Part shown: in pieces, positions 1,554-54,544 of the stretch
How positions within the stretch are numbered: the stretch's first letter is position 1
How the letters are laid out: every line of letters starts with the position of its first letter
DNA from: Raja brachyura
Lineage: Eukaryota
Assembly (NCBI GenBank): GCA_963514005.1
Contig: OY740814.1
Coordinates: 1,488,001-1,552,000, forward strand
Direction: 5' to 3'
DNA length: 64,000 bases
Made by a program: the position numbers and the translations under genes
Notes under the pieces: generated by a model
What the model was told of the DNA's origin: nothing
The model's input: the letters and a program-made list of their open reading frames with translations, nothing else
Database searches by the model: none

Positions 1554-1821
1554 TCTGCAATAAAGGGAAATCTGACATTTATTCAGTTGAGTCCACAATC
1601 AGAACCAAACCAATCTCCTCACTCTTTCACTGTCACCTACTCTCGCTCACATGCCCCCTAACACCACCCGTGTTCTCCTGCTACCAACCTATACCAGGGG
1701 TAATCTACAGACAACAATTAGCTAAGCAGACAGTGTGTCTTTCAGATGCAAGAGGAAGTGGAAACTCACGTAGTAACGAGGAGAGCATGCAAACTCCACA
1801 TGGGCAACGGCCCAAGATTGG

Positions 1822-1971
1822 TGCAGGAAGGAACTGCAGATGCTGGTTTAAACCGAAGATAGACACAAAATGCGAGAGTAACTCAGCGGGACAGGCAGCA
1901 TCTCTGGAGAGAAGGAATGGGTGACGTTTCGGGTCGAGACCCTTCTTCAGCATGAAGGTCACGGGAAAGGA
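1822..1971 (-). mobile_element. Penelope-like element 3' terminus with intact hammerhead core; continues at 3439-3625 beyond a CR1 insertion
   Basis: The reverse complement of 1923-1950 is ctgaagaagggtctcgacccgaaacgtc. The 3' UTR resumes at 3439-3625 and reaches the ORF end (SNFK* on the minus strand). Confidence 0.8.
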
Positions 1972-3438
1972 AGGAATGGCGTACTGCGCATGTTGTTCCA
2001 TTGTTTAAAAAGGGTTCAAAGAATAAACCTAGCAATTATAGACCTGTTAGTTTGACGTCAGTGGTGGGCAAATTAATGGAAAGGATACTTAGAGATAATA
2101 TATATATAAGCATCTGGATAAACAGGGTCTGATCAGGAACAGTCAACATGGATTTGTGCCTGGAAGGTCATGTTTGACAAACCTTCTTGAATTTTTTGAA
2201 GAGGTTACTAGGGAAATTGATGAGGGTAAAGCAGTGGATGTTGTCTGTATGGATTTCAGTAAGGCCTTTGACAAGGTTCCCCATGGAAGGTTGGTTAAGA
2301 AGGTTCAATCTTTGGGTGTTAATGGCAGAGCAGCAAGATGGATTCAACAGTGGCTGAATGGGAGATGCCAGAGAGTAATGGTGGATGGCTGTTTGTCAGG
2401 TTGGAGGCCGGTGACCAGTGGGGTGCCTCAGGGATCTGTGTTGGGTCCACTGTTGTTTGTCATGTACATCAATGATCTGGATGATGGGATGGAAAATTGG
2501 ATAAGTAAGTATGCAGATGATACTAAGATAGGTGGTGTTGTGGATAATGAAGTAGAAAAGTCTACAGAGAGATTTGGGCCATTTGGAAAAGTGGGCTGAA
2601 AGATGGCAGATGGAGTTTAATGCTGATAAGTGAGAGGTGCTACAACTTGGCAGGACAAATCAAAATAGGACGTACATGGTAAATGGTAGGGAATTGAGGA
2701 ATGCTGTGGAACAGAGGGATCTAGGAATAACTGTGCATAGTTCCCTGAAGGTGGAATCGCATGTAGATAGGGTGGTAAAGAAAGCTTTTGGTGTACTGGC
2801 CTTTATAAATCAGAGCATTGAATATAGGAGTAGGGAAGTAATGTTAAAATTGTACAAGGCAATGGTGAGACCAATTCTGGAGTACAGTGTACAATTTTGG
2901 TCGCCTAATTATAGGAAGGATGTCAACAAAATAGAGGGAGTACAGAGGATATTTACTAGTATGTTGCCTGGGTTCCAGCAACTAAGTTACAGAGAAAGGT
3001 TGAACAAGTTAGGTCTTTATTCTTTGGAGCGCAGAAGGTTAAGGGGGGACTTGATTGAGTTCTTTAAAATGATGAAAGGGATAGACAGAGTTGACGTGGG
3101 TAAGCTTTTCCCCATTGTGGGTATGGAAGATTCAAACAAGAGGGCATGACATGAGAATTAAGGGACAGAAGTTTAGGGGTAACATGAGGGGAACTTCTTT
3201 ACTCAGAGAGTGGTGGCTGTGTGGAATGATCTTCCAGCAGAAGTGGTGGAGGCAGGATCGATTTGAACATTTAAAAGTAAAGTGGATAGGTATATGGAAG
3301 GGAAGGGAATGGAGGGGTATGGTCTGAGTGCAGGTAGATGGGACTAGGGGAAAATAAATGGTCGGCATGGACTGGAAGGGCCGAGAGGGCCTGTTTCCGT
3401 GCTGTAATTGTTATATGGTTATATGTTATATGGTTAAA
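1972..3438 (+). mobile_element. CR1-clade LINE, 5'-truncated ORF2 (reverse transcriptase) with frameshifts
   Basis: [66 protein letters not shown] motifs. (gttatatg)n tail. Candidate TSD gggaaagga at 1963-1971 and 3439-3447. Confidence 0.95.
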
Positions 3439-4342
3439 GGGAAAGGAGAGATATAGATGATTATGGAGACAGATATAGAACAAATGAATGAAAGATATGG
3501 AAAAAAGATAGGTAACGGGTCATTGTTACCCGTGGGCTGGGGCAGAACAAACAGATGGTGTGACTAGGGTGGGGGAGGGATGGAGAGAGAGGGGGAATGC
3601 AGAGGTTACTTGAAGTTAGAGACCCATGTTGCTGCAACTGTGAAGTCACCACAGAGGGTCGACTATGTCACGGGCTTACAATTGGAGCTTAATCTGTCTC
3701 TAGCTTTCACTTTTCTTCAGTACATTCGACCTTTGTACCGTCGGGTAGCAGACTTTGCAATGAACTACATGCATCTAACAAGAATGCTCCATGACTTGGT
3801 TTCCGATTTCTGCATCCATTATTCTAACATAATAAATGAAGGTTAAGATTGAGGTTGCATTTATGAATATGTAATAATGAGGGTTTTTGGTGAATTGGAT
3901 AAGGCTGAAATCTACAAAAACAATTTATAACTAGCATTTTGAATCATTAATTTACCGAATGAACTCTCCCACATTGGCATGAAGATTAAAGGGACAACTC
4001 TTTGTGGTGGATCAAGAGTTGGGCTACTGTGTAAAAAGTACCAGATGGTAAGGATCAAAGAGAAATTACCTCACAAAGACAGATTCTTTACATTTTGTCC
4101 TTACATTTTGTTTATGTCTGTGCATCAAAAGGTAATTTAACTCCATCAATTATCTTCATGTTGCTGTCAGGAGATGCAATGATTGTTTGTAATGGTTCTA
4201 GATTTGACTTTATCACAGTGACCAAGTTCTATTATCAGACAATACAAGCTATGCCAGGGTAGGCAACGTTTAGTAAATGCCAGGATTCTGTTACATTCCT
4301 CAAACATAAATGGATTTAATCCATTTAACGTGTTTACGTTTG

Positions 4343-4970
4343 GGGCGGCACGGTGGCACAGCGGGTAGAGCTGCTGTCTCACAGCGCCAGAGACCAGGGT
4401 TGGATCCTGACTGGAACCAGGGGCCACAGTTTAAGAATAAGGGGTAAGCTATTTTGAACAGGGATGAGGAAACACTTTTTCTCACAGAGAGTTGTGAGTC
4501 TGTGGAATTCTCTGCCTCAGAGGGCGGTGGAGGCCGGTTCTCTGGATACTTTCAAGAGAGAGCTAGATAGGGCTCTTAAAGATAGCGGAGTCAGGGGATA
4601 TGGGGAGAAGGCAGGAACGGGGTACTGATTGGGGATGATCAGCCATGATCACATTGAATGGTGGTGCTGGCTCGAAGGGCTGAATGGCCTACTCCTGCAC
4701 CTATTGTCTATTGTCTACTACGGGCGCTGTCTGTACGGAGTTTGTACGTTCTCCCCGTGACCTGCATGGGCTTTCTCCGGGTGCTCCTGTTTCCTCCCAC
4801 TTTTCAAAGCCGTGCAGTTTTGGAGGTTAATTGGCTTCAGTCGTTATAAATTGTCGTTAATGTGTAAAATCTGAAACTGTGATGACATAGAACTAGTGTA
4901 TGGTTGTTCTTTGTTCGGCGATGACCCGGTGGGCCCAAGGGCCTGTTTCCACGCTGTATCTCGAAACTAA
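4343..4970 (+). mobile_element. V-SINE interrupted by a CR1 3' fragment (about 4412-4716)
   Basis: The SINE head ends at gatcctgact, a CR1 3' end with (ctattgt)n tail follows, and the SINE resumes at actacgggcgctgtctgtacggag. Confidence 0.88.
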
Positions 4971-5769
4971 ACAGAGGCTTTGGGAGAATATTTTTGCTCA
5001 GATGGGAGTACGATACAACCTTTCACTGGAGGACTTGCATAAACCAGACCCTTTACTCCTGTTTCAAAGGTTGAAATCCAATCTAATCAAGGTATTTCAA
5101 ATAATAAATAGCCGGATAGAGGGAACCAATTTCCTCTGTTGTAGGTATCCAGAAGGAGGAAAAAGAATCTTAAAATCAATGCCAGATCACCGGGGAGGAT
5201 TACTGTATAACTGTTAAGCCCCATGTAACCTGGAAAAGCCCTGTGTACGCAGAGCCAACTGAAAGATTCAAGATTAAGATTGATAGATTTTTCTTTGGAG
5301 AAGGATATTAAATGATAAATATTGAGCAAGGTTGATTAAATACATTTGAGGTACAGATCAGACGTTAGCCAGTTTAATAAGGAAACTGGCCGAGGGAGTT
5401 GAATCAACATTAGCAAAATTATACCAGTATTCACCGGTAACGCGCCTACGTACAAACGTTCACTTTCACAACTACAGTCAGGTTTGAGTCACGATCAAAA
5501 TTCCATTTGTATTCCCACCTTGAAAATAATTCCGTTTTTATGATGTGTTCTAACTCAGAGAGTCCATCTGACCTCTGAGAGGTTTAACATGGGGTACATT
5601 TGAATCAATTGTTGTCACACCCATTCTTCTGAAGAAGGGTCTTGACCCTTATCCAATTAACTAACAAAGTGAAGATAGACGCAAAAAGCTGGAGTAACTC
5701 AGCGGGACAGGCAGCATCTCCGGAGAGAAGGAACAGGTGACGTTTTGGGTCGAGACCCTTCTTCGCCTG

Positions 5770-5945
5770 AAACACACGTGACGCGGGGTGATGACGTATT
5801 GACGCGCGGTGTTTCCTCAAGTGGCGCAACATTTGTTTTGTTGCCGTTGGATTTTGGAATGTTCAAAATCGTTTGGTGACCCCGATACGACAGTCAATGA
5901 CGCCGGCAGTCGCCGAAACACTCGCCAAGTGGGACAGGCCCTTTA
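5770..5945. mobile_element. Right half of a MITE related to 11614-11941
   Basis: Ends aagtgggacaggcccttta, the same terminus as the palindromic MITE. Confidence 0.6.
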
Positions 5946-6210
5946 GAAAAAGGTCCTGACTGTCGACACTGTCTATGCATCTCATCATTTAATAAACTTG
6001 GTGAAGGGACTGTAAAATAACAGTACAAGTGTGTCTGATTCATCCCCACAAAGAGCGTAAGCGACCTGCTTGCCTTTGAGCATCGTACCGTTTCATGGTG
6101 ATGTACAAGTGGTGCCGGCCCACAAACCACTGAATCCAATTCCACAACTTGCCGCAGTGGGATACGATTATGGGATTTCTGGAACGTTAATAAAATACTA
6201 CAATCGTGGT

Positions 6211-6398
6211 GTAGGAAAGAACTGCAGGTGTTGGTTGGATAGATATATAATGCTGGAGTAACTCAGCGGGTCAGGAAGCATCTCTGGAGTAAAGGAATAG
6301 CTGATGTTTCGGGTCGAGACCCTTCTTCAGACGAAAATGTCACCCATTCCTTTTCTCCAGAGATGCTGCTGAGTTACTCCAGCATTTTGTAACTATAT
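6211..6398. mobile_element. Penelope-derived palindromic element
   Basis: Inverted arms flanked by tcgtggt at 6204-6210 and 6399-6405. Confidence 0.8.
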
Positions 6399-8329
6399 TC
6401 GTGGTACCGCAGTTATTTGGTGCGGCCTGTTCATTAAAACAAAGTCAAAGACAGTATTTGAGAAAAGATTCAAACAGATGGAATAGCTTGGTTTGCAAAT
6501 CAATTTGGAAGCAGAAATGAAGAACTGTGGAGCATGATTGATGAAAGAATGCTGGAGTAACTCGGAGAGTCAGGCAGCATCTCTGGAGAACAGGGAAGCA
6601 ACATTTCGGGTCGGGACATTTCTTCAGACCGACCCAAAACTAAACTAAAAGATACACAATAATGTGGTTACTTGCCAAAATGTGTTTTTGTTTCTTTTCC
6701 TTGGCATCATTTGTCTTCATTTGCAACACGTTTGAATATATATTTCATTCTTCAAAAGATTAAGCTGTGATGTTTTACAGAACAATGCCATTTGTCTTGC
6801 GTTCAGTTTTGGGACAGTGGAGATGTCTGTTTAATGTCACTGGTGAAAATATGTGCAATGCCAGAGACTGAGAGAAACTTGAACCTGCAACATTCCCGTT
6901 TAATTGTTCCCACGCACAAGCGCACTTTGCTGCCGTGCAGCTGCAATAATGCTCCTTCAACGTTTAAGTTAATTAACAATCACAGAATTAGGTCATTTAT
7001 AAAACAAATGGCCATTGTCAGTTACTGAATTACTTGGGTCAGTGGTAATGATGAACAAGGGGCTAACCCTCGTGTCTCTGGAATTCCAGTTGAATAAAGC
7101 CATTGAAATGGTTCCTTTACAGAAAAGCATACTGAATAAAACCTAAATATTGCAGCATGGAAAACAGTTGGAAAATTGATTCTATAATTAGCTTCCGACA
7201 GAAAGAAATCGAGAGAAAATAATTAGTTATTAAATGAAAAATACACGGCTCCGTTTCTGTCAGTAAATCTGCAGTCCTTCATTTCTTATCTATCGTTTCA
7301 CTCAGTAAGATAGATCCATTTTTAAGGAGTTCACCAAAGACTAAGAGTCATAACACAGCCTATTTATCAAACTATAGGGCCTGCGTATATCATATTAATT
7401 CAGCAATGTTTCTTCCCTGAGTGCAGTGTTTGCTTTACTGATCATAAATGGATTGAAATCTTGCAAATATTTTTTACTCTCATCCTTCCAATAAAGCAGA
7501 GAGCAAAATGGAAGTGATTTCACAGAAAGAAAATGCTTCCCATTCATCATTTGAACATAATGTTCTCCCTGGGACATCTATTCCTTTAAGCCCAGAGGAT
7601 CTTACTTCTTGTTGTGAAGGTCTGGGCCTACCAGTAATTTGAACGAATTACATTAGTACGGGTGTCAGGGGTTATGGGGAGCAGGCAGGAGAATGAGGGA
7701 GAATAGGAGGGAGAGATAGATCAGCCGTGATTGCATGGTGGAATAGACTTGATGGGCCGAGTGGCCTTATTCTGCTCCTAACACGTTTGACCTTAATTGA
7801 ATTAAAAGATATAGCAGGAAGGAAAGATTAAAAGGAAACAGGCCCTTCAGCCCAAAGTCTAAGCGTGCTTCTTCAGTCAACATCACAATTTTATAGCACT
7901 GGGAATGTTGTGTAAATGTATCAGAGCATCTTACACAGGCGTGGGACAAGATGGGAGTCCAGTCCTGTTGCTTGCTCAGGCCTGAAATCACTGGGGAACA
8001 GTTAGAAGAATTGATAGCCTGGTGCAATATGAAAGACCATGGGCAAGGCATGTCACATATTGGCAACAGGTAAACCATGCTTTTGGCTTTCGCTTACTTG
8101 TATAGATCAATGGTGATATGGCCAAGACGTTTCTGGTGCGATGCATTACTGAGCAAACTACGACTGCATGGCATTACAACAAAAATATGCTAATGGCGAT
8201 TTAGTTTAAATTGGTCAGATCATAGCTCATCCTCTGGATTTTGTTCAAAAGGTTTCCCAGGCTGCAGTTTCCTCTGTGTTCCATTCCTTACATCCGGACT
8301 AAATTTCTCCCTCACTTATCACCCTAACC

Positions 8330-8510
8330 CTCCCACTCTCACATTGTTGCTTTGATCCCTCGTTTTCACACCTTACCCCTCCATATCTCTAGACTCCATC
8401 TCCCTTAACTCTCAGTTGGAAGAAGGGTCTCGACCCGAAATGTCACCCATTCCTTCTCCCCAGAGACAATGCATGTCCCACTGAGTTACGCCAGACCTCT
8501 GTGTCTGTAT
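8330..8510 (+). mobile_element. Penelope-like 3' UTR and terminus, hammerhead core degenerate
   Basis: Pyrimidine-rich UTR, then ctcagttggaagaagggtctcgacccgaaatgtcacccattcc. Confidence 0.7.
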
Positions 8511-9330
8511 TCCACACGCTATATGTCCATTTGTTTCGTTGTGAACATGCGCCTTAAAACTGAATTGTTGTCGGTTCCCAGAGTGACACTTGTATTAGTG
8601 CCGGCCTCCCCTTGCCCTTCACTGCAGCAAAGAGTAGCTTGTTCTTTAAGTTGTACAAAGTCACAGAGGTTAATTTTCCAACTGCAAGCTCTTGGCATGA
8701 GGGGAGAGTCCACAGGGGACACGCAGCAGTATATTGTGGACAGCCCATGATTTTACATCCTTTTAAAATTATTGAGAAGAAAATTCTCGGCTGTGTTTGC
8801 ACAATTTCCTGATTTGCATTCCCACAGGCTGCATGCCAGGAGCAAGCCAGCAAAGAATTTCCTCGGCAAGGCCTTTGTGTATTCCACATGCCTGATGTGG
8901 AGGTTTCCTTAGCTCTGGATCCACCTTTAATCCTTTAGCACCTCAGCCGCTCGGAGCCAGAGAGTCAGTGAACCGGCGCTGCTTTTCTCATCACCCCCAA
9001 CTCTGAAATAACACTTATTTCTGGAGTTGTCGATTCATAAAGCAGCAGAAATTCCACCAAGCAATTCCAGGCGCAACTAACTCTTGGCCGAACAATGTGA
9101 TTTCTGCAACGGTCGAGGGTGGGACATGCCGGTCAGCATGGTCAGGTTGGGCCGAAGTGCCTGTTTGACGCTATGAATCTATAACAGATGCGTACTGGCT
9201 GTTGGCATTTTTCAGGGAAGGGCAATGAGCAGCTCTCTGGGCATGGGATTACAATGTTCTGTCTCTGGTCACTCCTGGAACCACAGCCCACTACTCCTCT
9301 TGTAGACTCCACACCGTTGTTCTCTCCATG

Positions 9331-9499
9331 GACACAAAAAGCTGGAGTAACTCAGCAGGAATGTGATTCTGAAGAAGGGTCTCGACCCGAAACGTCACCC
9401 ATTCCTTCTCTCCAGAGATGCTGCCTGTCCCGCTGAGTTACTCCAGCATTTTGTCTCTATCTTCGATTTGAAACAGCATCTGCAGTTCCTTGCTACACA
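9331..9499 (+). mobile_element. Penelope-derived element with short inverted arm and intact hammerhead core
   Basis: Core at 9369-9396. Flanks ttgttctctccatg (9317-9330) and ttggtctctctatg (9500-9513) form an imperfect TSD. Confidence 0.82.
9369..9396 (+). ncRNA. Minimal type-I hammerhead ribozyme core (representative copy)
   Basis: CUGAAGA, one extra A, stem II GGGUC-UC-GACCC, GAAA, loopless helix III C-G and a GUC triplet. This is the architecture known for Penelope-associated minimal hammerheads. Helix I is only 1-2 bp, so activity is unproven. Confidence 0.65.
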
Positions 9500-11941: not shown

Positions 11942-12002
11942 ATTACTGAGACAAACTATGATGAATCTCGGGTGATGATTATGAAAGTGTTTGTAAAGTT
12001 AC

Positions 12003-12239
12003 CTGACAAATCCCACTGATGCACATGTTGTGAGACTCCGTATTGCATCGGGTACCGTCGAGGACCTTGGGTGATAGTTCCACGATCAGGTCAGTGCCGC
12101 GGGCCTGACACTTCAGCGCACACTGAGCCTCTGGGTCGTTGTAGATGGGAACCCACTCGTAATATTGCCCCTGGTACTTCAGGTCATTGTGTGCGGAGCA
12201 TTGCTGGTGACGGAAGTCCCCAGCATCAGGCGGGCACCC
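12003..12239 (-). CDS. ADAMTSL3: ADAMTS-like protein coding exon (237 bp), cysteine-rich module
   Basis: tttttctgctgcag|GGG TGC...TGT CAG|gtaact. Translates GCPPDAGDFRHQQCSAHNDLKYQGQYYEWVPIYNDPEAQCALKCQARGTDLIVELSPKVLDGTRCNTESHNMCISGICQ, with the ADAMTS-type DFRxQQC, CxLxC and VLDGTRC motifs. Phase 0-0. Confidence 0.95.
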
Positions 12240-12671
12240 CTGCAGCAGAAAAACATGCGTTACTATCACACACAGTTGACCAACCTCTAGCCCTCGTGAA
12301 GGGATCCAGCACTGCAGTGCATTATCTCCTGCAACCAAGCCAGACCTCGGCAATAGCCTGAACTAAAACATGCATAAAAGCAGCAAGATTGATGTTAGCA
12401 TTGGGTACCATTCAGTGATCTTGCTGTCGGATTAATCCTAATAACACCAGAGGACGAGGCAAGTGACAAGTTTATCCTGCAGGAGAAAGGGATGATACAG
12501 TAACATGGCCAAGGTCTGGTGCTGCAATTGAGATTCCTGAAGCATGATGTCCAAGAGGCGTTAATGTTTGATTAAGTTGCTGCTTTATGGGATGTCAAGA
12601 CTGCCGCTTTTTTAACATGAAGGTGTTCCGTCTCCTGGTTTCACTTACAAACGGCTTTCACATAGAGTCAT

Positions 12672-20935: not shown

Positions 20936-22489
20936 AACCTTCCAGCTGGGTTCAGTAGACCAGTGCATGGCTCACTCCACCTACACACCCTTCATTAGTA
21001 CTTGGACAAGGGGACATAGCCAGTAACCGGGACACCTCCATCCTTGCACTACACATGGCTGGGGTCTCTCTGCTGTATCCATTTAAGTTATTTATTTCAA
21101 TAAAGGACTCAGCTGAGTAAAATGACCAGGCTTTTCCTAACAATCATCTTGGAGCAAAGATATTTATTTTTAATATAAATTTTAAATGAAATTTAAAAGA
21201 ATTGGACCTGCTCCTGTTTTACCAGATGTTGTTATAAAAAGTCAGAGTCATAGAGTGATACAGCGTGGAAACAGGCCCTTCGGCCGAACTTGCCCACACC
21301 GACCAACATACCCCATCTACACTAGTCCAACCGGCCCGTATTCCTAACCATGTCCCTGTCCAAATGTTGTTTAAAAGTTGTGATAGTTGTTGTAAATACC
21401 TCTGCCACCAACCCGCATGCTGACATAAACCGACCACATGAGGTCCACTCTAGCTTTCAACATCAGGGAGATACACTGCTCACTGCCACACGTACTACTC
21501 TGTACGTCCATTCTATCTGTTTGCACACCTGTTTATTGTTCACTTCGAAGACAAAAGCCTCTGGCACAATATATCCAATGCCGACAACCCATAAAACCCA
21601 CGCATCATTAAGTCCATTACGAAAACTATTTTTGAAACTGCATGGTTTTCTCATGACTTATCAGTGAAGCAGTTGATTCTAGTGCGTAGACTCTTTGATG
21701 AGGTGTAAAGTAAGCACGGCATGAATCACAACTGCCCAATGCTGAGAGCATTAAATCAACTATGACTTCTAAGCTCGAGGCTCATTAAAATATCTTGGAC
21801 CAGCTCAAAGTGTGATAAACACCTCTGATGAGAAGCCCGCCTGTGGGAGGTGGGGAATAGTCTGTACATCTGAATAAGCACTCCATGCAATGGTTATGAG
21901 CTGGGCTTCACAGAGATAGGGTCTTGCTTCATGGACAAGATGCCTCTCCCAACTATATTCATCAGGTCAGCAAGTGAACAGAGTGCCAGTGCATCCTCAA
22001 GTGTCCTCTGAAATGTTGAGACAATGTCTCACCAGAAATACATTTGATTACAGTAAAAGGCTGCTGGAGGAGGTAGTTGAGGCTGGGACTATCCCATAGT
22101 TTAAGAAACAGACAGGTACATGGAGAGGACAGGTGTGGAGGGTTATGGACCAAGCGCAGGCTGTGGGACTAGGGGAGCTGGGACATTGTTGGCCGGTGTG
22201 GGCGGGATGGGCCTGTTTCCACACTGTATTAAACTTGTCAAGAGAGTTTATTGTCATGTGGCCCAGATAGGACAATGAAAAACTATGACTCTAAATATTA
22301 AAATTGATATAAAGTAATATTACTTATAGATAATTAGATAATAAACTGGGGAAGGTGAATCTTAAGGAGAAAAGATTTCGAGAAGATGTCTTGTGAAAAA
22401 AAAACTGCCAGCGCAAACAGACAATGAACTGAATGAAATAAAAACAAAATCTGCTGTGACACCCAGGTGGTCAGGCAATGTTTGAAGGA

Positions 22490-22738
22490 CACAGAGTGCT
22501 GGAGTAACTCAGCGGGCCAGGCAGCATCTGTGGAGAACATGGATAGGTGACGTTTCACAGAGTGCTGGAGTAACTCAGCGGGTCAGGCAGCATCTGTGGA
22601 GAACATGGATAGGTGACGTTTCACAGAGTGCTGGAGTAACTCAGCGGGCCAGGCAGCATCTGTGGAGAACATGGATAGGTGACGTTTCACAGAGTGCTGG
22701 AGTAACTCAGCGGGTCAGGCAGCATCTGTGGAGAACAT
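22490..22738. repeat. 66-bp tandem array (about 3.8 units) derived from the Penelope terminus
   Basis: ggagtaactc recurs at 22501, 22567, 22633 and 22699. Confidence 0.95.
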
Positions 22739-34407: not shown

Positions 34408-34631
34408 GTTATTCCAGCACTCTGTGAAATGTCACCTATCCATGTTCTTCACAGATGCTGCCTGACCCGCTGAGTTACTCCAGCACTCTGTGAAACGTCA
34501 CCTATCCATGTTCTCCACAGATGCTGCCTGACCCGCTGAGTTACTCCAGCACTCTGTGAAACGTCACCTATCCATGTTCTCCACAGACGCTGCCTGACCC
34601 GCTGAGTTACTCCAGCACTCTGTGAAACGTC
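34408..34631. repeat. 66-bp tandem array (about 3.4 units), opposite orientation to 22490
   Basis: Repeating gaaacgtcacctatccatgttctccacagatgctgcctgacccgctgagttactccagcactctgt. Confidence 0.95.
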
Positions 34632-34994: not shown

Positions 34995-35659
34995 AATTCT
35001 TTAGTGAGACTGAGTTATAGAGTTTAGGAAGCAGGGAATGAATGACTAGGAGGAGGTCAGGAGTGGATGTGGACCATATGAAAGAAGAATCATTCGTTAG
35101 TTCCTGACTGGATGAATCCAATAGCTATATTTCACACTGAATAATTATCTCATTTACCTCAAAACTTTGAGCTGTTTCCTCGTTGCAAATTGCAGCAAAT
35201 TAGCTCTGTTTAATCAATTACATAATTAGAGAATATTATAGATTTGAATGTAATGTTTCTAAAAGGGGAGCAAATGGGACATTTACAAAGCTTCAGGCAG
35301 GTGTCCATCTGGAACTGCAGTTAACTGGACGCCAATGTTCACAAATGTTCATGGATTACTTTCCTACTTTGTAAGTCGAAGCAATTTAAACTCTACCACG
35401 GGTCTCCACTGGGGTTTATTTGGTTTATTTTACCCTCACGGCAGCTTGACTGGACCTCGACACACGTGACACTAATAAACCTGAACTCCAAAGTACACCT
35501 TCTGGGATTTACAAATGGACAAACGCTCATCTTACTAATCTATATCATCTGATTTGTAAAATAGAATATTGCTAAATGTAAGCGTTGAAGAGATGAACAT
35601 TAAAGCTTGCTGTTTAGATCCATTTAGTTTTCAAAATATTCAAAGTTTACTCCATGGGG

Positions 35660-36095
35660 GTGTCACGGTGGTGCAGCGGTAAAGTTGCTGCCTCACAGCA
35701 CCAGAGACCTGGGTCCGATCCCGACTACGGCTGCTGTCTGTACGGAGTTTGCACGTTCTCCCTGTGACCGGGTGGATTTTCTCCGGGTGCTCTGGTTTCC
35801 TCCCACAGTCCATAGACGTGCAGGATTGCAGGTTGTCTGAAGAAGGGTTCTGACCTGAAACGTCACCATTCCTTTTCTCCAGAGATGCTGCCTGACCTGC
35901 TGAGTGACTCCAACATTTTGTGTTTATCTTTGGCATAAACCAGCATCTTCCTACTGGTTTGCAGGTTAATAGGCTTTGGTTAAAAAAAAAATCGTGAATC
36001 GCTCCTAGTGTGTATGACATTGTTAGTGTGCGGGGATCGCTGGATGGTGCGGGCACGGCGGGCCGAAGGGCCTGTTTCCGTGCTGTATCTCTAAA
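35660..36095 (+). mobile_element. V-SINE with nested solo Penelope arm (35835-35955)
   Basis: The insert begins gtctgaagaaggg and ends cttcctact, flanked by ggattgcaggtt and ggtttgcaggtt. Confidence 0.85.
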
Positions 36096-36844: not shown

Positions 36845-37107
36845 ATACATCATGGAAACAGGTCCACGCCGACCATTGATCACCCGTTCACTAGCTCTAT
36901 CCCAGTTTCACATTCTACACACTCAGGGCAATTTACCTACAAACCTGCACATCATTTGGATGTGGCAGGAAATCGGAGCAACCGGTCTAAAACCCACGCG
37001 GTCACTGGGAGAACAAACTCCATACAGACAGCACCCGTAGTCAGGATCGAACCCACGTCTCGGACACTGTAAGGCAGCAACTCTAGCGCTGCACCACCGT
37101 GCTGCCC
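36845..37107 (-). mobile_element. V-SINE
   Basis: Reverse complement of the family consensus. Confidence 0.82.
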
Positions 37108-37292: not shown

Positions 37293-39330
37293 GTGTAGGA
37301 AGGATTTGCAGATGCTGGTTTAAACTGAAGATAGAACCAAAAAGCTGGAGTAACTCAGCGGGACAGGCAGCATCTCTGGAGAGAAGGAATGGGTGACGTT
37401 TCGGGGTCAAGACCCTTCTTCAGACTGGTTAGGATAAGGGAAACGAGAGATATAGAGGGTGATGTGGAGAGATAAAATAAACGGGCCAATGTTAGCTGTT
37501 TGTTGGGTGAAAACGAGAAGCTGGTGCGACTTGGGTGGGGGGAATAGAGAGAGAGGGAATGCTGGGGCTACCTGAAGTGAGCAAAATCAAAATTCATCCC
37601 GCTGGGCTGTAAGCTGCCCAAGTGAAATATGAGATGCTGTTCCTCCAATTTGCATTTAGCCTCACTCTGACAATGGAGGAGACCTAGGACAGAATGATCT
37701 GTGTCGGAATGGGAAGGAGAATTAAAGAGTTTAGCAACCGGAAGATCAGGTTGGTTCACACGGGCTGAGCGAAGGTGTTCAGTGAAACGATCGCCCAGTC
37801 TGCGTTTGGTCTCGCCGATGTATAAGAGTCCACATCTTGAACAACGGATACAGTCGATGAGGGGTGTTACAAAACTTACCTTCAGCAGCGCTGCAGTTCT
37901 GCCACTGCCCGTGTGCGCGACTTTGGCGCCTTTGAGAGGGGGGCGGGTTTAAAATGCGTTTTTTCTTCAGACTATTCAAATCGATTTTGAACATGCTATT
38001 TAGTTGCTGAAGAAAAATCGCTTCGACTGCCATTTTATTAAGTTTATTAAAATTAGCGCTGGATAATTTAATAGGAGTAAAATTAAAATCATCTTCTAGC
38101 GCCGTGAACACCGACAACGGGACGGATCTCACGTAAGGGACAAGGCAAGGTACACCGTTTATCTTTTCATATAAACTTGCTTCTTAGGATGCCTTTAATC
38201 AAAATTTCACGTTGCAAAAAGGTGACTGAGGACCCATATGAACTGGCAGTATATTTCCTGCCGATATGGAGTTTAAATTCACCGCAACCGCAACGTTCCA
38301 AACGATCGCGTTCCACAAAATCCTACTCGCAAGATGATTAAAATGGCCATTAATTCACGGGAATTTAACACTAAATTCTTTCCATTTAGCCTATAAATTC
38401 ATGACAATGAGATTTAAAAATCATGTTATATTGTGAATTCTTGTGTGAATGTTATTTGGACGCTTAGGCTTTTAAAAAATGTTAACCTTTTCTTAAGAAA
38501 TGGATAGATGTTTAGATCTAGTAATTGAATTTTATTATTAGCTACAATTAGGTAACTAACTAATTATATGCTTTAATTTCAGTTCATCCAAGTAAGATTG
38601 GTTCATATTTGTTTCAGAATGGTTTCATATATAATAACAGAAAATTTCAATCAGTTCTCTTAATTCTTAAAAAAGTTATGGGTTTTTGACTGTCCTTGAT
38701 CACAGCTTTTGTGTTAAGTCAGTGGAAAAACAAAAGGGAACAAGATGCTAATTTCCGAGTATGAAAATGGCCATAACTTTTTTAATACTGAAAATATGAA
38801 AGTGAATTAGGTGTCAAATTAAACTTTTTATTCTTTATCTGATGGGATAAATTGCAGACTTGATTTTTAAAATCTCAAACTTTTGTAATATTGCTGGTAG
38901 ATGAGGTTGGAGGAGGTGCAGGTGAACCTCTGCCTAACCTGAAAGGACTATCGGGGTCCCTGGACAGAGTCGAGGGAGGAGGTATAACGTCAGGTGTTGC
39001 AGGGGAAGGTACCTGGGGAGGGGGTGGTTTGGGTGGGAAGGGATGAGTTAACCAAGGAATTGCGGAGGGAACAGTCTCTGCGGAAAGCGGATAGGGGTGG
39101 AGATGGGAAAATGTGGCTGGTGGTGGGATCCTGTTGGAGGTGGTGGATATTTTGGAGGATTATGTGTTGTATGCGACGGCTGATGGGGTGGAAGGTGAGG
39201 TCTAGGGGAACTCGGGAGAGCAAGGGCGGAGCTGTGGGGTACCGAGGAGATACAAGTGAGGGCCTCATCAATGATGGGAGAGGGGGACCCCCATTTCCTA
39301 AAGAAGGAGGACATCTCGGATGTCCTGGAT
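37293..39330 (-). mobile_element. Penelope-like retroelement 3' part: GIY-YIG endonuclease, 3' UTR and hammerhead-bearing terminus, interrupted at 37861-38896
   Basis: AFRRDCSLRNSLV..GTFPC..FTCTSSNLIY | CIRCSRCGLLYIGETKRRLGDRFTEH...PVAKLFN..H...LEEQHLIFHLGSLQPSGMN (stop at 37568), then UTR and agtctgaagaagggtcttgaccccgaaacgtc...ccttcctacac. Confidence 0.92.
37861..38896. mobile_element. Non-autonomous DNA transposon (hAT-like), about 1.04 kb
   Basis: Splits the GIY-YIG motif. Flanked by gtcgatga (37853-37860) and gtagatga (38897-38904). Imperfect TIR tgttacaaaa / ttttgtaata. AT-rich and non-coding. Confidence 0.75.
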
Positions 39331-39421
39331 TTCCATACCAGGGCATGGTGAGGCAGGCTCCATTTGTACTTGACGGAGAGAATGGCCTTATTCTGCTCCT
39401 AGAACTTATGAACATGCAGTT

Positions 39422-39790: not shown

Positions 39791-39918
39791 CTGCCGTTTA
39801 AGCATCGACGGAGGGAATAGGAGGCCCCTCCGCCACAGGTCCTGGAACAGTCGCTCCAGGACCCCCAGGCATCCCAGCCAGTGTCCTGGTCCTCATCCGA
39901 GCGCGGGATCCTTGACGT
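39791..39918 (-). CDS. ADAMTSL3: ADAMTS-like protein coding exon (128 bp), N-terminal part of TSP1 repeat 1
   Basis: Minus strand ttcattttgcag|ACG...GGC AG|gtgaga. Translates [42 protein letters not shown](R), with the WxxWxxW and [11 protein letters not shown]1 motifs. Phase 0 in, phase 2 out. TSR/SDED/WSDC/CLxGR resemble ADAMTSL3 more than ADAMTSL1 (human sequences recalled from memory). Confidence 0.93.
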
Positions 39919-48760: not shown

Positions 48761-49060
48761 AGGGTGACACAGTGGCGCAGCAACAGACCTGCTGCCTTTC
48801 ACTGTCATATACCTGGGTTCAATCCTGACCATGGGTGCTGTCTGTGCGGAGTTTGTACGTTCTCCTTGTGACCACATGGGTTTACTCTGGGTGGTCCGGT
48901 TTTCTCCCACATTCCAAAGACGTGCAGGTTTGTAGGTTAATTGGCTTCTGTAAATATTGTCCCCAGTATGTAGGAGGAAACTAGTTCGAACGGGTGATCG
49001 ATGGTCGGCGTGGACTCGGTGGGCTAATGGGCTTGCTTCCACATTGTATCTCACAACTAA
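48761..49060 (+). mobile_element. V-SINE
   Basis: Head, V-domain and tail. Confidence 0.85.
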
Positions 49061-49360
49061 ACTCTAAGCTATAGAGAAACAGACCAAAGGGTGCCTCAGT
49101 TTCCAGTCTCGTTTAATACAAATTGGCCCTCAACTTATTACCCATTAAAGTATCTGGCTGTAGTCCTCCTTTGCCACCCAATTGGTCAAAATGAGACAAG
49201 TTTCTGGAAGGCCATTACTGTGGGCAGCTCGGTTGTAATCATATATAGTCTTTCTGCTGACTGGTCAACAAAAACCTTTCACTGTACCTCGGTACACGTG
49301 GCAATAAACTAAATTCAACTAATCTACCACTCAACGGCAAACCAGGGAGGTCCCAACCCG

Positions 49361-49560
49361 TGTTCTCCAGAGATGCTGCCTGACCCGCTGAGTTACTCCA
49401 GCACTCTGTGAAACGTCACCTACCCATGTTCTCCAGAGATGCTGCCTGACCCGCTGAGTTACTCCAGCACTCTGTGAAACGTCACCTATCCATGTTCTCC
49501 ACAGATGCTGCCTGACCCGCTGAGTTACTCAGTGGGACAGGCAGCATCTCTGGAGGACAT
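49361..49560. repeat. 66-bp tandem array (about 2.6 units) ending in a short fold-back
   Basis: gaaacgtcacc junctions at about 49410 and 49476, then gagttactcagtgggacaggcagcatctctggag in the opposite orientation. Confidence 0.9.
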
Positions 49561-50034: not shown

Positions 50035-50672
50035 TAACTGGTTGCTAAACACTTTAACTCCCCATCCCATTCCCACACTGCCCTTTCTGTCCTGGGCCTC
50101 CTCCATTGTCAGAGTGAGGCCCAGCGCTAATTGGAGGAACAGCACCTCATATTTCACTTGGGTAGTTTACACCCCATCGGTACGAACATTGACTTCTCAA
50201 ATTCAAAGTAGCCCTTGCTTTCCCTCTCTCTCCGTCCCCTCCCTGCTTGTTGTCACCTTCTCCCAACTAACAATGCTCTATGTTTAGGAAGGAACTGCAG
50301 ATGCTGGTCTAAATGAAAGATGACACAAAGTGCTGGAGTAACTCAGCGGGACAGGCAGTGTCTTTGGAGAGAAAGAATGGGTGATGTTTCGGGTCGAGAC
50401 CTTTCTTCCGACTGATCTAATGGAACAATGGTCTACTCTATATTTTCCTTGATCGCCATTCCCTTTGTCCTGTTTTCACAGCATACACTTCCTTATCTAT
50501 ACATTTCCTTATCTATGTACCTCCCTCTCCCCTGACATCAGACTAAAGAAGGGTCTTGACCCGAAACGTTACCTATTCCTTCTCTCCAGAGATGCTGCCT
50601 GTCCTGCTGAGTTACTCCAGCATTTTGTGTCTATCTTCGGTGTAAACCAGCATCTGCAGTTCCTTCCTACAC
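50035..50672 (+). mobile_element. Penelope-like GIY-YIG C-terminus, UTR and terminus, with an inverted solo arm at about 50283-50412
   Basis: VAKHFNSPSHSHT.LSVLGLLHCQSEA..LEEQHLIFHLGSLHP.G.NIDFS, then UTR and arm ending cagttccttcctacac. Confidence 0.88.
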
Positions 50673-53200: not shown

Positions 53201-53896
53201 TGTGAAAAATCTTTACCCCTTCACCTTGAACCTATGTCCTCTGGTCCTCGATTCACCTACTCTGGGAAAAGACTCTGTGCATCGAGTTTATCCTGGAATT
53301 GTAGAGATGGTAGAATGTGGCACAGCAGTCGATGCTTCAACTATCCCGAGTATTGTATTAAAAGATCAGCTGGTAATGTATTTAAAGTAAATATTTCCTG
53401 CCATCACCTCATTTCCAAGCCATTCTCGCCATCTAAAAATATTCTCAGACTAATTTATGCTTGTCATATTTCTTATCGATGACTGACAATGACATTTGTC
53501 CTTCAATGATACGTTAAGAGAAATGAAGCAAGATTAATATGTCCAATTAATCGAGCCAAAGGTTGTAATCTTTGTATCGGCCCTGCCAACAGATTGCTTC
53601 TGGTTTATAGGTTTCAGATGAAATTGAGAAAGCCAGAATTATTCTTAAAATAGAAAGATGAAAGAGATTGCAGATGTTGGAATGGAAACACAAACTCCTG
53701 ATGTTGCAGAGCATAGCAGGTCAAGCAGTGCCTGTGGAAGCAACACGTGATCAAGCTCTTGTCCTGAAACATTGACAAACATCTTTTGTCTCCATCGATG
53801 AGGCTTGACCACTTGAAGTCCTAGGCGGTTTTTTCTCATTCAGGTTAAGTTCCAAATTAGGAGTCAACACACAACTTATAGGTTTGGTAAACGTAA

Positions 53897-54110
53897 AGTG
53901 CTGGAGTAACTCAGCGGGTCAGGCAGCATCTGTGGAGCAAGTGGATAGGTGACGTTTCACAGAGTGCTGGAGTAACTCAGCGGGTCAGGCAGCATCTGTG
54001 GAGAACACAGATAGGTGACGTTTCACAGAGTGCTGGAGTAACTCAGCGGGTCAGGCAGCATCTGTGGAGCAAGTGGATAGGTGACGTTTCAGGTTAGGGC
54101 CCTCCTTCAG
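53897..54110. repeat. 66-bp tandem array (3 units) running into a degenerate hammerhead core
   Basis: The third unit continues gacgtttcaggttagggccctccttcag. An opposite-orientation arm lies at about 54220-54335. Confidence 0.92.
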
Positions 54111-54544
54111 TTTACCAATCACCCATCTGCCAATTACCCCCACCCTGCCCACTATTATCCACCTATCACTTGCCAGACTTTGCCCCTCCCTGGCCTCTCT
54201 TCCTCTCCCCCAGTCCATCAGAGTGAAGAAGTGTACCGACCCGAAACGTCGCTAATCCATTCTCTCCACAGTTGTTGCATGATCCATTGAGTTACTCCAG
54301 TACTTTGTGCTTTTCTTCAGGTCCCAGCATCTGCATCATGTGACTATATTTTTGGGAGAGTGATATATATTTTTTAAATCCACAGGCCGGACATGGCAAC
54401 ACCACAGGCAGCACAATTAGATTGATCATCAGCATTTTAGGACAGGGAAGAACACATCAGGATTCCCGCTGCTAATTGCACGAAGGGTAGTGTCACATGT
54501 TTACAGATGTTGCATTCCCCTGGTGATGCCCAAATATGTCCAAA

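What the first reader, a model, noticed from the sequence alone, without database searches (positions are those of the whole stretch)
37293..37860. The dominant short repeat is a Penelope retroelement terminus carrying a minimal hammerhead ribozyme
Seen: roughly 30 copies of a ~130-nt arm occur across the window. Here, and at 50035-50672, the arm is directly contiguous with a GIY-YIG ORF end and 3' UTR, which identifies it as the Penelope terminal repeat. Its first 28 nt read CTGAAGA-A-GGGTCTCGACCC-GAAAC-GTC (perfect at 9369-9396 plus and 1923-1950 minus). At least four subfamilies mostly keep CTGAAGA, GGG/CC(C/T) and GAAAC while the stem II loop varies (tctcga, tcttga, tttcga, tcccga). Established: Penelope-like elements carry minimal type-I hammerheads with a palindromic loopless helix III thought to cleave as dimers. 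Inference: this lineage has amplified a non-autonomous, ribozyme-bearing mini-retroposon to about one copy per 2 kb, including copies in the sense of the host pre-mRNA. Caveat: helix I is only about 2 bp (GU..AC).
Basis: partly seen in the sequence, partly recalled or inferred. Interest (0 to 1): 0.8.

Follow-up and report, generated by a model that had tools for sequence, protein, structure and literature searches.

The report
Penelope transposon end with minimal hammerhead
This very common short repeat is the end piece of a jumping gene and carries the outline of a tiny self-cutting RNA of a known kind, but its copies look as if they were made from RNA that had not cut itself.

Summary
The repeat is real. 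It is the terminal repeat (pLTR) of a Neptune-type Penelope-like element. 26 of 30 GIY-YIG loci carry it downstream. 20 of 20 intact 1,100-1,400-codon copies end in it, and 10 also have it before the ORF. The 28-nt motif occurs 50,608 times exactly. It fits the published minimal type-I hammerhead. It is more constant between subfamilies than the rest of the arm (2/28 vs 24/67 variable columns). Distant homologues carry covarying hammerheads at the same place (17 of 44 loci). So: a new member of a known kind.

Cleavage is doubtful. Helix I is 2 bp against 4-6 in relatives, the predicted fold sequesters helix II, and Rfam finds no hammerhead. The short copies are not a separate mini-retroposon lineage: they match the autonomous subfamilies. 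Unexpectedly, most begin sharply 1-5 nt before the core (121 of 154), and none of 100 begins at the cleavage site. Best reading: the element's RNA starts about 3 nt before the ribozyme, and uncleaved RNA is what gets copied. This is inferred; no RNA ends were mapped.

The parts
37571..37860 (-). C-terminal GIY-YIG endonuclease fragment of a Penelope-like ORF (older subfamily, 72% identical in DNA to the young intact family)
   Evidence: (Pfam GIY-YIG E=0.006, below cut-off)
37424..37570 (-). Stop codon and pyrimidine-rich 3' UTR ending in CAGT; about 45 nt shorter than in most relatives
   Evidence: arm 148 nt after the ORF end here; typically 186-204
37424..37427 (-). CAGT: 5' strand of helix I and, in other copies, the sharp 5' boundary (initiator-like; label recalled)
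37395..37423 (-). Minimal type-I hammerhead motif (CUGAAGA, A, 4-bp helix II, GAAA, CG, UC) with one extra C in helix II; predicted cleavage between 37395 and 37394
   Evidence: descriptor from PMC4209133
37293..37394 (-). Rest of the terminal arm, including the 30-40 nt 'tail'; copies end near +94 or +131
   Evidence: tail described in PMC8557442
38897..39345 (-). Upstream continuation of the same PLE ORF (thumb end and Cys linker), broken by stops and frameshifts and separated by a 1-kb insertion
50040..50208 (+). Second GIY-YIG ORF end
50282..50410 (-). Inverted arm lying inside that copy's 3' UTR
50543..50672 (+). Terminal arm of the second copy; core G5 lost
9369..9499 (+). Short arm with a perfect motif, starting at -1, preceded by an inverted arm fragment
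1821..1950 (-). Arm with a perfect motif
39796..39891 (-). Host exon, thrombospondin type-1 repeat of an ADAMTS-like gene
12000..12251 (-). Host exon, ADAMTS cysteine-rich region

Best explanation
The arm is the pseudo-LTR of an active Neptune-type Penelope-like retrotransposon and carries an inherited minimal type-I hammerhead motif (shown). In tandem elements the arm lies both about 130 nt before the ORF and about 250 nt after it (shown). The element's RNA most likely starts at the A or G of CAGT, 2-3 nt before the hammerhead core, from an internal promoter (inferred). The element's RT/endonuclease primes at arm position ~+94 or ~+131 and copies to the RNA's 5' end. Priming on the downstream arm gives long copies. 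Priming on the 5' arm, or on a short transcript from any genomic arm, gives the 100-135 nt solo copies; template jumps give the inverted pairs (inferred). The integrated templates were not cleaved at the hammerhead (shown for DNA copies). The ribozyme is therefore weak or conditional, and any cut would remove a ~31-nt capped 5' piece rather than free a unit-length template (inferred).
For: Terminus: 26 of 30; 20 of 20 downstream, 10 of 20 upstream; pLTR pairs 97-100% identical. Intact copies are 97.5-100% identical, 171 pairs among 19. 5' boundary: 121 of 154 copies that reach the core start within -15..+6, and 19 extend beyond -30. Solo copies match C/A/G/T at -4..-1 in 39/56/61/75% and are background from -6 on (n=116). 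Of 50,608 perfect motifs, 9,709 are preceded by non-A+GT and 6,473 by non-C+AGT. 31 of 80 such loci have 8-17 nt target duplications ending next to the boundary and no inverted arm. A whole 4-kb insertion (L074) starts at -3 between 15-nt duplications. The same boundary shows as loose contig ends in runs X1 and X2 of two coded organisms. No start at the cleavage site: 0 of 393 alignments start at +27..+33, and 100 of 100 listed young arms are preceded by TC or TT. Precedent for an internal promoter in the pLTR: PMC2377424. Motif constraint.
Against: No RNA end was observed: all runs offered were contigs, and table 6 was empty. The excess G before the boundary (48 of 100 and 60 of 100, hand counts; p 3e-5 and 1e-9) looks like a cap signature. 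But many of these Gs are explained by template jumps at short microhomologies and by inverted arms (20 of 80), and solo copies show it before AGT (11 of 16) but not before GT (7 of 21). Some boundary matches are target-derived microhomology. In D. virilis the start site is ~120 nt upstream of the hammerhead, not 3 nt (combining). Two old subfamilies had no UTR-attached copy in my sample (7 and 3 copies).
Confidence: 0.6

Rival explanations
1. Published model: the two pLTR hammerheads cleave as a dimer in tandem or read-through RNA and release a unit-length (perhaps circular) template; the 5' boundary has another cause.
For: Core conserved between subfamilies (2/28 vs 24/67, p=0.005). Tolerated changes keep the fold: U-A to U.G in helix II with GUC to GUU, and U-A to U.G at helix I. 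Homologues have 4-6 bp covarying helix I (7 of 7 types). Head-to-tail arm joints occur in contigs of X1 and X2. Model in PMC4209133.
Against: No genomic copy class starts at the cleavage site, and copies keep ~65-100 nt beyond it. Predicted probability of helix II is <=0.02, and the double hammerhead scores -6.7 vs -19.7 kcal/mol for the best dimer. A rolling-circle template would hide the junction, so this is not excluded for long copies.
Confidence: 0.2
2. The boundary is set at the DNA or splicing level: endonuclease resolution of the intermediate at CAGT, RT arrest at the rod-like fold, or a 3' splice site (pyrimidine tract + CAG) as in D. virilis Penelope.
For: CAGT is kept in 93-96% of 84 UTR-attached copies while the upstream UTRs differ. 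An intron end abuts helix I in D. virilis. Endonuclease resolution is invoked for the tail. The predicted hairpin begins at about +1.
Against: Splicing predicts a boundary at -1 with a shared upstream exon. Observed copies often keep AGT or GT and are preceded by target DNA. No GT..AG joint ending at -1 among the 15 of 31 joints shown.
Confidence: 0.15
3. One reading: an independent non-autonomous mini-retroposon lineage whose ribozyme is active in host pre-mRNA.
For: A fixed 5' and 3' boundary. Solo or inverted copies are 98 of 115 in the unbiased sample. Solo arms could be transcribed if the promoter is internal. Non-autonomous PLE derivatives are published.
Against: Solo arms carry the same diagnostic bases as ORF-attached arms. 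No depletion of sense copies in the host gene. Most copies have a broken core.
Confidence: 0.15

Closest known systems
Minimal hammerheads (min-HHR) of metazoan Penelope-like elements, Cervera and de la Pena 2014 (PMC4209133; abstract, results, discussion and part of methods read; figures and supplements not seen)
   Same: Type I core, no loop III, palindromic 15.2-16.2, extra base after A9, G10.1-C11.1, location in both pLTRs, mostly solo copies, some opposed pairs; reported in Neptune, Poseidon and Xena of fishes.
   Different: Helix I 2 bp and helix II 4 bp (there 4-5 and 7-8 bp in Schistosoma; 2 bp helix I only in D. virilis). One near-invariant sequence at 50,608 perfect copies versus 2,000-9,000 variable motifs. 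The fixed 5' boundary just before the core is not described in the parts read. No cartilaginous fish is named in those parts.
Neptune clade of EN+ PLEs (PMC8557442; passages read)
   Same: RT then CX2-5CxxC linker then GIY-YIG with CCHH; partial tandems, inverted 5' copies, 30-40 nt tail, variable target duplications.
   Different: About 480-aa N-terminal extension before the RT region. Clade not tested by a tree; Nematis also has the linker.
D. virilis Penelope internal promoter (PMC2377424; passages and section 15 read)
   Same: Start site and promoter inside the pLTR of the upstream partner.
   Different: There the hammerhead follows a 75-nt intron that begins 46 nt after the start; here the inferred start is 2-3 nt before the core.
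Non-LTR retrozymes (bioRxiv 10.64898/2026.07.22.740005; parts 1-3 of 5 read; supplements closed)
   Same: Short hammerhead-bearing repeats derived from pLTRs; found in one chondrichthyan; 8 of 9 Xenopus dimers did not cleave.
   Different: Retrozymes are tandem units each with a hammerhead. Here arms are mostly solo or inverted, and the abundant 66-nt tandem lacks the CUGANGA half.
Pr77/L1TcRz of trypanosome retroposons (search listing and abstract starts only)
   Same: The first tens of nucleotides would serve as both internal promoter and ribozyme.
   Different: HDV-like ribozyme that cleaves at the element's 5' edge and is active; here a hammerhead whose cut lies ~31 nt inside.

Membership tests
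EN+ Penelope-like element | Single ORF with RT and C-terminal GIY-YIG bearing CCHH | tested here: met
   1,138-1,372 codon open frames; Pfam RVT_1 E 3e-4 and GIY-YIG E 2e-3 (both below curated cut-offs); YIDD and C..C/H..H visible in the translation
EN+ Penelope-like element | Partial tandems forming pLTRs, inverted 5' copies, 30-40 nt tail | tested here: met
   (10 of 20 with a full upstream arm; inverted copies in L077, L081, L083); 3' ends near +94 and +131
Neptune clade | CX2-5CxxC linker between RT and EN | tested here: met
   Seen in translations; definition
Neptune clade | Placement in an RT phylogeny with Neptune rather than Nematis | not tested
   No reference set of named clades was at hand
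PLE minimal type-I hammerhead | CUGANGA, GAAA and UH core | tested here: met
   constant in 7 of 8 subfamily consensuses, the exception being a CpG site (G12) in the oldest cluster
PLE minimal type-I hammerhead | Extra base after A9, G10.1-C11.1 and palindromic 15.2-16.2 | tested here: met
PLE minimal type-I hammerhead | Helix II with pairing-preserving variation | tested here: met
   One-sided U-A to U.G in a subfamily (12 of 376 copies); varied pairs in homologues, but pairing was required by my descriptor
PLE minimal type-I hammerhead | Helix I of about 4-5 bp | tested here: not met
   2 bp here; 4-6 bp in 7 of 7 homologue type representatives, 3 bp in L240. A 2-bp helix I is published for D. 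virilis, so this marks an atypical member
PLE minimal type-I hammerhead | Self-cleavage as a dimer | not testable with these tools
   Fold prediction unfavourable; no raw reads offered
Rfam hammerhead families | Match to a covariance model | tested here: not met
   No hammerhead among 4 matches at E<=1 in the window
Non-LTR retrozyme | Tandem units each with a complete hammerhead | tested here: not met
   1 of 115 motif copies tandem in the unbiased sample; the 66-nt arrays lack the 5' core
Independent non-autonomous PLE derivative | Own diagnostic sequence lineage separate from ORF-bearing copies | tested here: inconclusive
   6 of 8 subfamilies have UTR-attached members; 2 small old ones had none; re-copying from solo arms cannot be told apart

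The most novel reading that the evidence does not exclude
In this vertebrate PLE the hammerhead sits 3 nt behind the cap and overlaps the internal promoter. It does not liberate the template. It is a conditional self-decapping switch, or a promoter that has kept a ribozyme's sequence. Internal priming on the uncleaved 5' arm yields strong-stop-like products that have seeded on the order of a million short ribozyme-motif copies (extrapolated from 170 long copies in 400 kb). The DNA copies would then be a fossil 5'-RACE of the element, showing that transposing PLE RNA is uncleaved.
Probability: 0.3. Interest if true: 0.7.

Novelty: new member of a known kind. Interest (0 to 1): 0.42.

Why it matters
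That PLEs carry minimal hammerheads is published, so the identification is expected. What the ribozyme does in endonuclease-bearing PLEs is stated to be unclear (PMC8557442). This genome offers an unusually good test case: dozens of intact, ~99% identical autonomous copies, tens of thousands of perfect motif copies, and insertion junctions that can be read. Those junctions say that the integrated RNA was not cut at the ribozyme and began just before it. If RNA data confirm this, it argues against the 'cleave out the template' model for this clade.

Tried and rejected
Rfam scan at E<=1: only microRNA-like hairpin matches caused by inverted pairs, no hammerhead. A longer helix I from upstream UTR pairing: not supported, both sides are pyrimidine-rich. 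Cap-derived G as proof of a start site: kept only as a hint, because template jumps explain many cases. The 66-nt tandem as a rolling-circle product of hammerhead cleavage: rejected, its junction is at +20, not +28. Strand depletion in the host gene: none. RNA evidence: only contigs, most merely guessed to be RNA, so start, end, strand and level cannot be read; runs X6 and X14 had almost no cover. The first clustering attempts had coordinate faults and were replaced (redone). Alignment A2 had one wrong coordinate and was not used. Lunse et al. on dimer cleavage is not held; I saw only its title and a review's summary. Literature searches with no description of this family or of the 5' boundary: (open-access library only; Repbase/Dfam entries and supplements not seen and may describe it). 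Earlier scan notes: nothing. 150 of 475 unmasked ORFs were scanned for the host gene.

Full report
Observation. The 28-nt motif is present as described: perfect at 9369-9396 (+) and 1923-1950 (-), 15 matches within 3 mismatches, none in 100 shuffles. The arm is commoner than reported: 87 hits in the window, 51 of at least 80 nt, and 306 hits (170 long) in 400 kb sampled across 24 contigs. The exact 28-mer occurs 50,608 times in the 2.7-Gb genome, with 0 for the reversed control. The closest named homologues of the ORF are from sharks, so the host is a cartilaginous fish; a skate is my guess. At the finding, minus strand, the sequence runs GIY-YIG ORF end (37860-37571), stop, 3' UTR, CAGT, motif (37423-37395, with one extra C in helix II), arm to 37293. 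The ORF resumes at 38897-39345 beyond a 1-kb insertion. At 50035-50672 the UTR is split by an inverted arm and the motif has lost G5. Two exons of an ADAMTS-like gene lie on the minus strand at about 39.8 and 12.1 kb (E 3e-4 and 4e-3 in Pfam), so the copy is intronic and in sense.

What it is. The GIY-YIG fragment has 119,733 first-look candidates in the genome. Of the 30 best loci, 26 have a same-sense arm 141-635 nt after the ORF end, mostly near 190. A shark RT query found 68 near-full matches, most without stops. In the 20 of these that I fetched, the longest frame is 1,138-1,372 codons. All 20 end in the arm about 250 nt after the stop, and 10 also carry it about 130 nt before the ORF, in direct repeats 97-100% identical. 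Nineteen of them are 97.5-100% identical over their last 2.4 kb: a young, probably active family. The protein has RT, a CX2-5CxxC linker and GIY-YIG, which with tandems, inverted copies and a tail matches the description of Neptune-type PLEs (PMC8557442, passages). No tree was built. The window's fragment is 72% identical to the young family and belongs to an older subfamily.

Is it a hammerhead? It matches the minimal descriptor of PMC4209133 in core, extra base after A9, G10.1-C11.1 and the palindrome. I clustered copies on the sequence downstream of the motif only (376 of 467 kept). Among 8 subfamily consensuses, 2 of 28 motif columns vary against 24 of 67 downstream (p=0.005; 3/28 vs 27/67 with 12 consensuses, p=0.007). 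Subfamilies are related and copies with under 60% motif identity were dropped, so the p-values are indicative. One subfamily changes U-A to U.G in helix II and GUC to GUU. In homologues of 32-49% protein identity from metagenomes, 17 of 44 evaluable loci have a sense minimal hammerhead within 600 nt of the ORF end, against none in 20 shuffles. Helix I was not part of that descriptor, yet it forms 4-6 bp with different pairs in 7 of 7 type representatives. So the motif is an inherited hammerhead. Against activity: helix I is 2 bp here; the predicted fold pairs the purine-rich 5' half with the downstream pyrimidines, leaving helix II at probability 0.02 or less; the double hammerhead scores -6.7 against -19.7 kcal/mol for the best dimer; Rfam reports no hammerhead; and only 5 of 44 window copies and 24 of 117 sampled copies keep core, helix II and palindrome. 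Published minimal hammerheads also cleave poorly, and 8 of 9 Xenopus dimers did not cleave.

The short copies. In the unbiased sample, 59 of 115 motif copies are solo, 39 have an inverted arm upstream, 16 are attached to a UTR and 1 is tandem. Their 5' ends are not random. Of 154 copies whose alignment reaches the core, 121 begin within -15..+6 and 19 pass -30. Solo copies match CAGT at 39/56/61/75% and fall to background from -6. Genome-wide, 9,709 perfect motifs are preceded by non-A+GT, 6,473 by non-C+AGT and 20,831 by non-A,N,N+CAGT; 60 of the first 100 of the last class carry the young UTR (hand count). In 80 loci taken in list order from the first two classes, 31 have 8-17 nt target duplications and no inverted arm, 60 carry the young family's arm, and 3' ends cluster at +90-99 (51) and +125 or more (18). 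One complete 4-kb insertion, L074, starts at -3 between 15-nt duplications. Contigs of two coded organisms show loose ends at the same place. In contrast, no alignment starts at +27..+33 (0 of 393), and all 100 listed young arms are preceded by TC (93) or TT (7). Copies were thus made from RNA that spanned the cleavage site.

Mechanism. The simplest reading is that -3/-2 is the RNA's 5' end. YCAGTCT fits the initiator consensus (recalled), and Penelope's promoter is internal and lies in the pLTR (PMC2377424). RT primes at +94 or +131. On the downstream arm it makes long copies; on the 5' arm or on short arm transcripts it makes solo copies; jumps at short microhomologies give inverted pairs and tandems. 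A start at -3 would also explain why only 2 bp of helix I are kept. An excess of G before the boundary (48 and 60 of 100) suggests a copied cap, but template jumps explain many cases, so it is a hint only. All of this is inference from DNA; no RNA end was seen. Rivals are dimer cleavage of read-through RNA with a circular template, a boundary set by the endonuclease or a splice site, and an independent mini-element. The last is weakened because 6 of 8 subfamilies have UTR-attached members and sense copies are not depleted in the host gene.

Comparison and verdict. It works like, and on sequence features belongs to, the PLE minimal hammerheads, as an atypical member with a 2-bp helix I; catalysis is untested. 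It is not a retrozyme array. Searches found no description of this family or of a boundary just before the core, but repeat databases, supplements and the Lunse et al. paper were not seen. New member of a known kind; interest 0.42, raised above routine by the junction evidence on an open question.

Noticed in passing
window 22488-22734, 34426-34624, 49364-49530, 53895-54111: 66-nt tandem arrays made of arm positions about +20 to +85, lacking the CUGANGA half. The exact 30-nt junction occurs 29,853 times genome-wide in dispersed arrays: a PLE-derived dispersed minisatellite.
   Followed up: partly
window 37862-38896: 1-kb single-copy (in the window) insertion splitting the PLE ORF, with imperfect inverted ends and an 8-10 nt duplication; probably a DNA transposon derivative.
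   Followed up: no
window 39796-39891 and 12000-12251, minus strand: Exons of an ADAMTS-like gene; by recall most like ADAMTSL3.
   Followed up: partly
L071 3253-6861 and related loci L072-L090: The intact ORF has a ~480-aa N-terminal extension, partly proline-rich, with no Pfam match.
   Followed up: no
L078 3138-3363 (laid contigs X1, X2): Head-to-tail joints from the arm's 3' end back to its 5' boundary with 1-30 nt between, and a recurrent end at 3335: tandem or circular short units may exist in related organisms.
   Followed up: no
arm positions +47..+55 and +105..+113, e.g. window 9416-9424 and 9474-9482: The tail can pair with the conserved AGAUGCUG block, an alternative stem near the two priming sites.
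   Followed up: no
L118 (5940 region), L165, L182: The 30-40 nt tail appears inverted at the 5' end of solo arms, inside the target duplication.
   Followed up: partly
L208: A run of telomere-like hexamer repeats lies between the target duplication and the arm's 5' end.
   Followed up: no
L049 142-1221 and L050 128-1306: Tyrosine-recombinase-like and RT/RNase H-like frames typical of DIRS-type retrotransposons (recalled).
   Followed up: no
window 35657-35800, 37045-37105, 48770-49070: Other abundant SINE-like repeats with tRNA-like heads (seen); about 48% of the window matches other fetched loci.
   Followed up: no
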